NCBI RefSeq assembly: GCF_044324785.1
Contig: NZ_CP172127.1
DNA length: 64,000 bases
Reading direction: 5' to 3' (one strand)
From: Escherichia coli
GTDB taxonomy: Bacteria > Pseudomonadota > Gammaproteobacteria > Enterobacterales > Enterobacteriaceae
Positions 5,001 to 8,000 of this stretch are shown one piece after another; positions within the stretch are counted from its first letter, which is position 1, and each line of letters starts with the position of its first letter. The position numbers are program-made.

Positions 5001-8000
5001 GAGGATCTCGGTGCAGGTACGCATGTTGAAGTCATTGCGATAGAAGGGATAACGCTGATCATCCGTGCGGTCATCGCCTGATGCGACGCTGACGCGTCTT
5101 ATCATGCCTACAAAAATATGCCCGAATCGTAGGCCGGATAAGTCGTTTACGCCGCATCCGGCGGTTATGCGCTGATGCCTGATGCGGCGCGGGCGCGTCT
5201 TATCATGCCTGGAAGTCTGCGCCCGAATCGTAGGCCGCCTCCGCTATATTAACTGGCATTGGCAAATTACTCGTCACTACCTTTATTCATGTTTTTTTGG
5301 TCTTCATCCGGATAATGTTTTTTTAGATATTCCAGGACGTTTTTATTGACCTTGTGTTGCGTATACACCCACCCTTTCCAGTAATCAGGCTGGTCCAGGT
5401 AAACTTCTGGCGGAATGGTGAAATCAGAAAGCGTTAACCATTCGGCTAACAGATCAGGGTTTCGTTTCTGGATTAACTGCAACAGCATAATCAGTGACAT
5501 AGCTGAGGCAGGAGCCGTACTATCGCCACTCAAATATTTCCACACTGTTGACCGGTTCGAACGAAAAAGGATCGGTAGCAATGCCCGGTCCAGATTCATT
5601 TCATTAAAAATCTTCTCAAATTCATTCATTTAAATTTTCCTGCCTGGCGTAAACCTCTTAAAAATTGAGATTTATCAAAGAAACGCATTTTAGCACACAT
5701 CAGGAACCGGTTCACGTTTAGTCCAGAAACAGAATTTATTTCGCTTATCAAAACAAGTCTTTACTCTTTTTTACATTGAAAGAGCACAAAATGATTTTCG
5801 ATTTTATTTATATAAGAAACATTTTTTGTTTCTTATTGGTGGTGTTTACGCTTACACCAGACAAAAATGCGCTTTACATCACACAAATGGCGGCGTAGAT
5901 TTCGATTAAATTGCAACGCAGATTAATTCTTATAACAACGTTTTACGTTGCTTATAGAAACAAATATGTGACTTACTTTGAAAGAGAAAAAATGCATGAA
6001 AACTGTAAAGCTGTCTTTACTGGCTGTCGTTGTTGCTACCGTGGTAAGTCCATCTGCGTTTGCGGGTGATACTGTTGAGGCGGCAACGACAGAATTAACG
6101 GCAATCCAGCCAGGAATGTCGCAATCGGAAATTGATCAGAAAATTGGTCGATTTTTAGAAAGGACAGGGAATAGTGCAGCCGCACAAAATTATCTGATTG
6201 CGCATGATTACCGGACAACGACACCTCAGGAAAATACAGCTGCCTCTCCCGTACAGCCCGCCAATACGCTGAACCCGATAACCAATCAAGCGCAGACCGA
6301 CCGCGACAACGGGCAGGATACCGCCATTCAGGACGCACAACATGCCGCCAACTGGGCTTCAATGAAAGCTGATGACGCGCAGCACGCCATTATGGTGGCG
6401 CAGACGGATATTGATGCCAATAAAGCCGCCATCGCCGACACCCGTAATGATGTCTCCGCAGTGCAGTCAGACGTCACCAACATAAAAGGCGATGTCGCAC
6501 ATGCCCAGTCAACGGCTGACCATGCCAACGCTAACGCCAACACCGCTCTGATTAACGGCGTCAAACTTTCCGGTGCTGTGACAGAAAACAAAAACAACAT
6601 CGAACAGAACCGCAGCGATATTGCTGACCAGCAGAAACTGTTGGCATCAAACGAGCAAAAACAGATCGTCCGCGACAACGGGCAGGATACCGCCATTCAG
6701 GACGCGCAACATGCCGCCAACTGGGCTTCACTGAAAGCTGATGACGCGCAGCACGCCATCACGGTGGCGCAGACGGATATTGATGCCAATAAAGCCGCCA
6801 TCGCCGACACCCGTAATGATGTCTCCGCAGTGCGGTCAGACGTCACCAACATAAAAGGCGATGTCGCACATGCCCAGTCAACGGCTGACCATGCCAACGC
6901 TAACGCCAACACCGCTCTGATGAACGGCGTCAAACTTTCCGGTGCTGTGACAGAAAACAAAAACAACATCGAACAGAACCGCAGCGATATTGCTGACCAA
7001 CAGCAACAACTCGACGAAACCCGGAAAATCGTTGCCGCCACCGGGGATGTACAGACTGCCGCCCGATATCAGAGCATGATTGACGCCAGACAGACAGCCA
7101 CTGCCAATGCGCAACAGGCACAAGCTGACACCCAGCAGCAACAAATGGACGATCAGCAGAAACAAATCGACGCGACGCAAAAAACGGTTTTCGCACTTGG
7201 CGATGCCCAGACCAACGCACATTATCAAGAGATGGTTAACGCCGGACTGAGAGCACAAAATGATGCGAATGCGCGTACTGCAGCAGAACAAAAACAAAAA
7301 ATAGATACTCTGGCGACTAACCAGGCAACGCAACAGCATATCGATAGTGTGCAGTACGGGGAACAAATTCAGCGTCTGGCGCAAGACTCAACACAAACGC
7401 ATGAACAAATTGACAGCCTGACACAAGACGTAACCCAAACGCATCAGCAGTTAAGCAACACGCAAAAACGAGTAGCGGATAATAGCCAGCAGATTACTAC
7501 GCTCAATAACCATTTCAGTTCGCTGAAAAACGAAGTTGAGGACAACCGTAAAGAAGCCAATGCGGGAACTGCATCAGCCATCGCTATCGCCTCACAACCA
7601 CAGGTGAAAGCCGGTGACTTTATGATGATGTCAGCGGGAGCGGGAACCTTCAACGGTGAATCTGCGGTGTCTGTCGGAACATCTTTTAATGCCGGAACGC
7701 ATACCGTGATTAAAGCCGGTGTCTCTGCGGATACGCAATCTGATTTCGGCGCGGGTGTCGGCGTGGGATATTCTTTCTAATATTCCAATCCTCAATATAA
7801 ATAAGAGCAAGGAAGCTTGCCGGGTTTCACCTCTTCATTAATTTGTACATTATTTAAGGTTAACAATGATGAATAGTTCCATTAAATCGTTTTCCCTGCT
7901 GGCGGTTATATTACTGGCTGGCTGTAGTTCACCCACTTCCCGCATCGCAGATTGCCAGGCGCAGGGCGTCAGCCATGACACCTGTTATCTCGCAGAACAA

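What the first reader, a model, noticed from the sequence alone, without database searches (positions are those of the whole stretch)
5267..5995. Divergent 120-aa hypothetical gene with a 366-bp AT-rich intergenic region upstream of the adhesin gene
The layout (small divergently transcribed gene plus long AT-rich spacer) is typical of a local regulator controlling an H-NS-silenced horizontally acquired gene. The protein has no family I can name, so it may be a new regulator.
Basis: inference. Interest (0 to 1): 0.4.

Follow-up and report, generated by a model that had tools for sequence, protein, structure and literature searches.

The report
Small HTH regulator beside adhesin gene
The small divergent gene is real and is the uncharacterised E. 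coli gene z0640; it encodes a helix-turn-helix DNA-binding protein that always sits back-to-back with a trimeric autotransporter adhesin gene, so it is probably that adhesin cassette's own regulator, though nobody has tested this.

Summary
A 120-aa ORF lies at 5267-5629 (-), followed by a 366-bp spacer of 32% G+C, the most AT-rich stretch of a 55% G+C window. A YadA-anchor trimeric autotransporter (TAA) gene starts at 5996 (+).

The window is E. coli, in the ybbJ-cueR region, which is O-island 29 of O157:H7. Primer mapping identifies the small gene as z0640 and the adhesin as z0639.

The back-to-back pairing of this gene with a TAA gene, usually followed by a lipoprotein gene and in most loci a ~67-aa gene, recurs at several chromosomal sites in several Enterobacterales.

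The spacer carries 3-6 copies of AGAAAC/GTTTCT (about 0.3 expected) at conserved positions. One copy overlaps the small gene's predicted transcription start.

Best reading: an autoregulating local regulator of the TAA cassette. This is inferred, not shown.

- Published data show that z0640 is transcribed.
- Its deletion does not change motility.
- The TAA works without it, so it is not an essential activator.
- H-NS silencing is unsupported.

Side finding: the published "transcription factor GmrA" is the adhesin itself.

The parts
5267..5629 (-). z0640 orthologue: 120-aa protein. Residues 1-70 form a five-helix XRE/lambda-repressor-like HTH domain, with the predicted recognition helix at residues 26-34 (RSTVWKYLS; R26 is invariant in the family). 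Residues 71-120 are a helical C-terminal part with no structural match.
5630..5995 (.). 366-bp divergent control region, 32% G+C
   Evidence: Present in 1413 of 5426 complete E. coli genomes, always together with the flanking genes.
5679..5684 (+). AGAAAC copy D (GTTTCT on the small gene's sense strand). It lies 2 nt downstream of the predicted -10, over the predicted transcription start of the small gene, and is a candidate autoregulatory operator.
   Evidence: It lies in a 12-nt block (5674-5685) identical between E. coli and Pseudocitrobacter.
5687..5695 (-). Predicted extended -10 of the small gene (TGCTAAAAT on the minus strand)
   Evidence: Read from the sequence. TAAAAT is invariant in E. 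coli and Pseudocitrobacter. TGGTAAAAT followed by GTTTCT is also present in L007, and TGGTAAAAT in L021. The promoter is an inference; no transcription start data were available.
5725..5730 (+). AGAAAC copy C, about 96 nt upstream of the small gene's ATG
   Evidence: Conserved 8-nt block 5724-5731.
5815..5833 (.). Central inverted pair AGAAAC-N7-GTTTCT, inside the perfect 10-nt inverted repeat ATAAGAAACA / TGTTTCTTAT (5812-5821 / 5827-5836)
   Evidence: (I20).
5873..5901 (+). Candidate sigma-70 promoter of the adhesin gene (TTTACA, 17-nt spacer, TAGATT)
   Evidence: Consensus scan. The -10 lies in a 12-nt block (5890-5901) identical in E. coli and Pseudocitrobacter. Not experimentally mapped.
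5947..5961 (+). Site A: GTTGCTTATAGAAAC (a perfect GTTTCTtatAGAAAC palindrome in O157:H7 and IHE3034), 35-49 nt upstream of the adhesin ATG. An AGAAAC copy sits at the same distance (39-42 nt) in Pseudocitrobacter, L007 and L008.
5996..7780 (+). [not shown]
7866..8288 (+). [not shown]
8285..8488 (+). 67-aa ORF, found with the cassette in most of the related loci

Best explanation

[not shown]
For: Sequence. Pfam MqsA_antitoxin (HTH part) matches 6 of 24 family members, best E=2.4e-5; Xre-like-HTH matches 4, HTH_3 3 and HTH_26 2.

Synteny. The gene lies back-to-back with a YadA_anchor gene in these places:
- E. coli, between ybbJ and cueR;
- Escherichia sp. and E. whittamii;
- Pseudocitrobacter, at a different site between qmcA and fetA;
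- L007, beside two tandem TAAs in a recombinase-bearing region, 48% identity;
- L008-L010, 44% identity;
- L012, L013 and L021, at yet another site, 32-44% identity.
The pairing is independent of the neighbouring type I secretion island OI-28, which is absent in IHE3034 and Pseudocitrobacter.

Motif. AGAAAC (both strands) occurs 5, 6, 6, 3, 5, 4 and 4 times in the spacers of window, O157, IHE3034, two Pseudocitrobacter loci, L007 and L008. Dinucleotide shuffles give 0.23-0.37; 0/2000 shuffles reach the observed count in six cases and 4/2000 in one. L007 and L008 are independent tests, because their spacers do not align with E. coli. It is the most frequent hexamer overall in the diverged spacers. 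Three of the seven blocks of at least 6 nt that are identical between E. coli and Pseudocitrobacter are this motif, and two more are the predicted -10 elements. Four of the six window-wide matches to GTTTCTNNNAGAAAC with up to 2 mismatches fall in the 366 bp.

Expression. z0640, z0639 and z0638 are all transcribed in DMEM and all drop together on HeLa attachment (Table S3 of PMC5826968). This fits a shared control region.
Against: There is no direct evidence of DNA binding or of any effect on the adhesin promoter.

The adhesin gene plus 319 bp of spacer on pACYC184 complements a whole-island deletion without z0640.

The window protein itself scores only E=0.081 against Pfam MqsA_antitoxin. Foldseek E-values are above 0.1.

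The AGAAAC motif is absent from the most diverged TAA-linked spacer, L012. The variant motifs I proposed there are post hoc and weak: L013 has only 1 copy.

In Symbiopectobacterium the TAA and the lipoprotein gene are pseudogenes while the small gene is intact.

A host factor could be what recognises the motif.
Confidence: 0.55

Rival explanations
1. [not shown]
For: The spacer is the most AT-rich tract in the window. Several motif copies lie upstream of the candidate adhesin promoter, at 5725-5833. All three island transcripts rise and fall together (Table S3), as a positive feedback loop would produce. From general knowledge, other E. coli autotransporter genes are H-NS-repressed; this was not tested here.
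Against: The adhesin gene is functional from its own upstream region in a strain that lacks z0640. The z0640 deletion does not phenocopy the z0639 deletion. The adhesin is expressed in DMEM at RPKM 96, so it is not silent. The closest structural relatives are repressors or autorepressors. One motif copy sits on the small gene's own predicted start site and another in the adhesin leader, which are positions typical of repression. No H-NS high-affinity motif lies in the spacer.
Confidence: 0.2
2. [not shown]
For: The best sequence and structure matches are antitoxins and phage or anti-CRISPR controllers: MqsA, HigA2, Aca1/2 and the C-proteins. The most distant family members (P0037, P0039, P0042) sit beside large serine recombinases in prophage-like regions, in a CI-like position. 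The gene survives in Symbiopectobacterium although the TAA is decayed. The z0640 deletion has no phenotype in the published assays.
Against: No toxin partner exists. The only upstream ORF, of 41-44 codons, is confined to E. coli and spans the predicted promoter. Downstream are REP elements and the convergent ybbJ gene. There are no PADLOC hits. The pairing with a TAA persists down to 32-48% protein identity, across at least four different insertion sites, while the spacer has diverged beyond alignment. Hitch-hiking alone would not preserve that. Purifying selection is strong.
Confidence: 0.15
3. [not shown]
Against: The motif is enriched specifically in the spacers next to this gene family: 3-6 copies against a background of 0.17-0.41 per 366 bp in the surrounding sequence. 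One copy is fixed next to the small gene's -10 in three lineages. The outside copy is intragenic and probably chance.
Confidence: 0.1

Closest known systems
z0640 of O-island 29, E. coli O157:H7 EDL933 (Yang et al. 2018, PMC5826968)
   Same: It is the same gene: 96.7% protein identity and the same position between ybbJ and the z0639 TAA. The published deletion arms flank the orthologue exactly.
   Different: In the window strain only the C-terminal tail differs (residues 113-119), and the neighbouring TAA is 594 aa instead of 338 aa. The paper treats z0640 as a hypothetical protein with no motility role. It did not examine its fold or any effect on z0639.
MqsA and HigA2 antitoxin HTH domains (XRE family)
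   Same: Best Pfam match (MqsA_antitoxin positions 76-129) and best Foldseek match (HigA2, 24% identity over 63 residues, rmsd 2.4 A). The protein is small and its predicted operator overlaps its own promoter. The GTTTCT-N3-AGAAAC geometry resembles the ACCT-N3-AGGT palindrome of MqsA; that comparison is from my own knowledge and was not tested.
   Different: There is no toxin gene. The HTH is N-terminal, not C-terminal as in MqsA and HigA2. There is no zinc-binding domain. The conserved partner is an adhesin operon.
Aca2 / Aca1 anti-CRISPR-associated autorepressors and R-M controller (C) proteins
   Different: Sequence identity is only 13-19%. The C-terminal halves do not superpose (rmsd 7.1 A over 68 residues for Aca2). 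The regulated neighbour would be transcribed divergently, not as a co-directional operon. There are no acr or R-M genes nearby.
Phage CI/Cro-type repressors next to integrases
   Same: Distant family members (23-30% identity) occupy that position beside large serine recombinases. The fold is the same.
   Different: The window locus has no phage or recombinase genes. The TAA-linked branch forms its own clade with a conserved C-terminal motif (PPEVYLxQPDYWKGW).

Membership tests
XRE / Cro-CI (lambda-repressor-like) HTH superfamily | Five-helix globular domain with the helix-turn-helix formed by helices 2 and 3 | tested here: met
   [not shown]
XRE / Cro-CI (lambda-repressor-like) HTH superfamily | Significant sequence match to a curated HTH model (Pfam HTH_3, HTH_31, MqsA_antitoxin and the like) at the gathering score | tested here: not met
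   The window protein scores 13.5 bits (E=0.081) against MqsA_antitoxin, whose cut-off is 30 bits. Family members give only sub-threshold hits, best E=2.4e-5. NCBIfam finds nothing.
XRE / Cro-CI (lambda-repressor-like) HTH superfamily | Sequence-specific DNA binding | not testable with these tools
   There is only indirect support: a repeated, conserved motif in the adjacent spacer.
Type II toxin-antitoxin antitoxin (MqsA / HigA type) | Adjacent, co-transcribed toxin gene | tested here: not met
   No conserved ORF lies on the same strand, either upstream or downstream, where there are REP elements and then the convergent ybbJ. A ParE-like ORF occurs in L007 only, and it is not adjacent.
Orthologue of O157:H7 z0640 (OI-29) | High identity and conserved position between ybbJ and z0639 | tested here: met
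   96.7% identity, the same neighbours, and published primers that map onto it.
Dedicated local regulator of a horizontally acquired adhesin | Conserved genetic linkage with the target across lineages and insertion sites | tested here: met
   Every TAA-branch locus with enough contig shows the pairing. Exceptions or unresolved cases: L011 shows no TAA in the roughly 0.8 kb upstream of the gene on a 4.9-kb contig, and L014 is too short to tell.
Dedicated local regulator of a horizontally acquired adhesin | Change in target expression when the regulator is removed or over-produced | not tested
   This was not measured in PMC5826968. Indirectly, the z0640 deletion does not alter the motility phenotype attributed to z0639, and z0639 functions without z0640.
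H-NS-silenced locus | H-NS occupancy and derepression in an hns mutant | not testable with these tools
   Only the AT-richness (32% G+C) is consistent with it. The gene is transcribed in DMEM, and no H-NS high-affinity motif lies in the spacer.

The most novel reading that the evidence does not exclude
Probability: 0.3. Interest if true: 0.55.

Novelty: new member of a known kind. Interest (0 to 1): 0.4.

Why it matters

Tried and rejected
- **Single-sequence searches.** Pfam, NCBIfam, PHROGs, PADLOC and PDB found nothing significant for the window protein.
- **First AlphaFold run.** With 10 close homologues the model was unusable, pLDDT 54. Adding 14 distant homologues from the exhaustive search fixed it.
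- **PDB profile search.** The top hits were spurious (Nup85), followed by weak antitoxin hits.
- **Toxin-antitoxin idea.** Rejected: the upstream 41-44-codon ORF is not conserved outside E. coli.
- **Regulator of the adjacent T1SS / giant adhesin island OI-28.** Rejected: the cassette occurs without OI-28 in IHE3034 and Pseudocitrobacter.
- **RNA element in the adhesin leader.** No Rfam hit lies in the spacer, and the predicted leader folds no better than shuffles, z=+0.5.
- **H-NS high-affinity motif.** None in the spacer.
- **Co-variation of operator and recognition helix in L012/L021.** Suggestive, but post hoc and not robust, so I do not rely on it.
- **Perfect motif palindrome at 57039-57053.** It is intragenic and probably chance.

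Full report
**1. What is at the coordinates**

The minus-strand ORF 5267..5629 encodes 120 aa (MNEFEKIFNEMNLDRALLPILFRSNRSTVWKYLSG...). A plausible Shine-Dalgarno sequence (AGGA) lies 9 nt upstream of its start. The next gene on the plus strand starts at ATG 5996, so the spacer is 366 bp (5630-5995). Spacer G+C is 32.0% against 55.0% for the window. Only 0.18% of 366-bp windows are as AT-rich.

The plus-strand gene (5996-7780, 594 aa) has a signal-peptide-like N-terminus, a long coiled-coil stalk and a C-terminal YadA_anchor domain (E=1.2e-11). It is therefore a trimeric autotransporter adhesin, TAA.

**2. Where the window comes from and what the genes are called**

The region is E. coli chromosome. 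The gene order is fetBA, qmcA, ybbJ, REP elements, [120-aa gene], [TAA, 140-aa lipoprotein, 67-aa ORF], cueR, and then a type I secretion system with a giant BapA/SiiE-like adhesin. The small gene, the spacer and the 3' part of the cassette are each present in 1413-1416 of 5426 complete E. coli genomes, always as a single chromosomal copy. Carriers include O157:H7 and the NMEC strain IHE3034.

This is O-island 29 of O157:H7, described by Yang et al. 2018 (PMC5826968) as a 2,643-bp island with z0638, z0639 and z0640. I mapped their lambda-Red homology arms onto O157:H7 strain TW14359 (locus L002):
- The z0640 arms flank the 120-aa gene exactly.
- The 'gmrA' (z0639) arms flank the 338-aa YadA-family gene.
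- The z0638 arms flank the lipoprotein gene.

So the finding is z0640, a named but functionally uncharacterised gene. Ogura et al. 2007 list the adhesin (ECs0548) as 'Saa-like protein' (PMC2323221).

**3. Is it a real gene?**

Yes, on four grounds:
- dN/dS is 0.065 and 0.153 within E. coli, about 0.08 against Pseudocitrobacter, 0.056 against Symbiopectobacterium, and 0 (at dS=0.20) between two Pseudocitrobacter lineages.
- Within E. coli all amino-acid changes fall in the last eight residues.
- The O157:H7 orthologue is transcribed at RPKM 43.5 in DMEM (Table S3 of PMC5826968).
- The structure prediction is confident (section 4).

**4. What the protein is**

No curated library recognises it. 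The only Pfam hit is sub-threshold and falls on the HTH part of MqsA_antitoxin (E=0.081). NCBIfam and PADLOC give nothing; PHROGs and the PDB sequence search give only sub-threshold matches with no annotated function or relevance.

The family is tiny. The word-indexed search found 21 clusters. The exhaustive profile search of 1.84 billion representatives found only 24 with E<=1e-3.

With 10 close homologues AlphaFold failed (pLDDT 54). With a 24-sequence alignment that included the distant members it gave pLDDT 90.8 and pTM 0.78. The model has helices at 3-11, 15-22, 26-34, 41-56 and 58-70, followed by four short helices.

Scanning all 24 family members against Pfam gives converging sub-threshold hits: MqsA_antitoxin (6 members, best 2.4e-5), Xre-like-HTH (4), HTH_3 (3) and HTH_26 (2). 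R26, at the start of the predicted recognition helix, is invariant across the family.

Residues 71-120 carry the clade-specific motif PPEVYLxQPDYWKGW and have no structural match. I infer, but have not shown, that they mediate dimerisation.

**5. Conserved neighbourhood**

This is the strongest functional evidence. Wherever a contig is long enough, homologues down to 32-48% identity lie back-to-back with a YadA_anchor gene across a 308-408-bp spacer. A homologue of the 140-aa lipoprotein usually follows, and in most loci a ~67-aa ORF as well.

| Locus or organism | Chromosomal context | Identity to window protein |
|---|---|---|
| E. coli | between ybbJ and cueR | 96-100% |
| Escherichia sp., E. 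whittamii | same cassette | 96-97% |
| Pseudocitrobacter | between qmcA and fetA (a different site) | 70-74% |
| L007 | two tandem TAAs, near a large serine recombinase | 48% |
| L008-L010 | next to sucrose-utilisation genes | 44% |
| L012, L013, L021 | between ribE-like and MFS/IclR genes | 32-44% |

In P0027 (L012/L013) only the HTH half is conserved.

The pairing does not depend on the adjacent OI-28 secretion island, which is missing in IHE3034 and Pseudocitrobacter.

There are three exceptions or caveats:
- One short metagenomic contig (L011) shows no TAA within about 0.8 kb upstream.
- In Ca. Symbiopectobacterium the TAA is truncated to 174 aa without an anchor and the lipoprotein gene is split, yet the small gene is intact.
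- The most distant relatives (P0037, P0039, P0042; 23-30% identity) are not TAA-linked. They sit beside large serine recombinases in prophage-like regions, where a CI-type repressor would be. This suggests the evolutionary origin of the family.

**6. The spacer**

The spacers of diverged loci are barely alignable, yet they share a hexamer. AGAAAC, counted on both strands, occurs as follows:

| Spacer | Copies observed |
|---|---|
| window | 5 |
| O157 | 6 |
| IHE3034 | 6 |
| Pseudocitrobacter A | 3 |
| Pseudocitrobacter B | 5 |
| L007 | 4 |
| L008 | 4 |

Dinucleotide-preserving shuffles give 0.23-0.37 copies. No shuffle out of 2000 reaches the observed count in six of the seven cases, and 4 of 2000 do so for Pseudocitrobacter A. 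The background in the flanking DNA is 0.17-0.41 per 366 bp. In an unbiased count it is the most frequent hexamer over the diverged spacers, despite containing G and C in DNA of about 30% G+C. Because I first saw the motif in E. coli, L007 and L008 serve as independent tests.

The positions are conserved:
- One copy lies 39-42 nt upstream of the TAA start codon in all five lineages. In the window it is at 5956-5961. In O157 and IHE3034 it is part of a perfect GTTTCTtatAGAAAC palindrome.
- A central inverted pair lies at 5815-5820 and 5828-5833, within the perfect 10-nt inverted repeat found.
- One copy lies about 96 nt upstream of the small gene's ATG (5725-5730).
- One copy lies about 50 nt upstream of the small gene's ATG (5679-5684).

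Of the seven blocks of at least 6 nt that are identical between three E. coli lineages and two Pseudocitrobacter lineages, three are this motif. Two others are predicted -10 elements: TAAAAT at 5687-5692, and the block containing TAGATT at 5890-5901.

On the small gene's strand the sequence reads TGCTAAAAT-GC-GTTTCT. That is an extended -10 followed two bases later by the motif, which puts the motif on the predicted transcription start. TGGTAAAAT followed by GTTTCT recurs in L007. The candidate TAA promoter (TTTACA, 17 nt, TAGATT, at 5873-5901) would place site A at about +40 to +54 in the leader, and the central pair at about -75 to -93.

The promoters are predictions. No transcription start data were available. 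The leader RNA shows no unusual structure (z=+0.5), and Rfam finds nothing in the spacer.

**7. Mechanism**

I favour repression or damping over activation, at roughly 60:40, for four reasons:
- The structural relatives are (auto)repressors.
- Two conserved motif copies lie in positions typical of repression.
- The z0640 deletion does not phenocopy the z0639 deletion.
- The adhesin gene with 319 bp of upstream DNA, mapped at L002 6048-7384, complements a whole-island deletion that lacks z0640.

The coordinated fall of all three island transcripts on HeLa attachment shows a common control, but it does not tell the sign.

DNA binding, the operator identity and the regulatory effect are all inferences. 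My overall confidence in 'local regulator of the cassette' is about 0.55. My confidence that the gene is real and encodes an XRE-type HTH protein is above 0.9.

**8.

It cannot be tested with these tools. AT-richness is compatible with it. However, the adhesin gene is transcribed at RPKM 96 in DMEM, and the H-NS high-affinity motif, which I recall from the literature as TCGATAAATT, has no match with up to 1 mismatch in the spacer.

**9. Comparison with known systems, and novelty**

Functionally the arrangement resembles the small XRE controllers that set the dose of an adjacent horizontally acquired gene: Aca proteins, C-proteins and antitoxins. It is not a member of any of those systems. There is no toxin, no acr or R-M genes nearby, and no defence-system hit. 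Membership of the XRE superfamily is met at the fold level but not at the curated sequence thresholds.

I found no paper describing a dedicated HTH regulator paired with a trimeric autotransporter. That is absence in a limited library, not proof of absence.

I rate the finding as a new member of a known kind. The gene itself is already catalogued as z0640; the fold, the conserved pairing and the candidate operator are new.

**10. Side finding**

The protein published and reviewed as 'transcriptional activator GmrA', said to bind the fliA promoter (PMC5826968; PMC9387321), is the TAA itself. Its deletion arms, its pET28a and FLAG cloning primers (ATGAAAACTGTAAACGTAGCTTTA = MKTVNVAL) and its complementation fragment all map on the YadA-family ORF. 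That ORF has a signal peptide and a YadA anchor (E=1.1e-11).

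Noticed in passing
[not shown]
   Followed up: partly
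window 6293-7007: There is a 369-bp tandem duplication (1.9 copies, 97% identical) inside the TAA passenger/stalk. It makes the protein 594 aa here, against 338 aa in O157:H7 and IHE3034. TAA lengths in related loci range from 338 to 584 aa.
   Followed up: partly
window 7866-8488 (+): A 140-aa lipoprotein (lipobox LLAGC, coiled-coil segment) is conserved downstream of the TAA in most of the related loci, and an overlapping 67-aa ORF in most of the loci where the downstream region could be examined. They may be biogenesis helpers of the adhesin; that is my speculation. No family or PDB sequence match was found.
   Followed up: partly
window 5076-5237: Two REP/BIME-type repeats (61-nt units, 84% identical) lie between ybbJ and the 3' end of the small gene. 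Rfam naRNA4 matches at 5132-5209 (64.6 bits, above the gathering score). They mark the island boundary.
   Followed up: partly
window 57039-57053: A perfect GTTTCTGCCAGAAAC palindrome, the idealised form of the spacer motif, lies inside a minus-strand ORF (56857-57234, a small membrane protein). It is probably chance, but it is the only perfect copy in the 64 kb.
   Followed up: partly
window 8896-32921 (-) and 34270-34783: The adjacent O-island 28 consists of a HlyD-type adaptor, an ABC exporter and an intact 6895-aa BapA/SiiE-like adhesin ORF. That ORF is annotated as frameshifted in O157:H7 TW14359. A second very AT-rich tract at 34270-34783 is probably the upstream control region of that island, which a 2025 paper reports to be bound by RstA.
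   Followed up: no
L019 2520-4330 (Ca. Symbiopectobacterium): The TAA is truncated to 174 aa without its anchor and the lipoprotein gene is split in two, while the small HTH gene remains intact (109 aa, dN/dS 0.056 against E. coli).
   Followed up: partly
proteins P0005, P0016, P0018 (E. coli variants of the small gene): Some E. coli lineages carry C-terminally frameshifted versions of the small protein, diverging after about residue 76-95. One cluster has 14 member sequences.
   Followed up: no
L015, L016, L023-L026: The most distant relatives of the family (23-30% identity) lie next to large serine recombinases in prophage-like regions, divergent from strings of small genes. This is a CI-repressor-like position and suggests a phage origin for the family.
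   Followed up: partly
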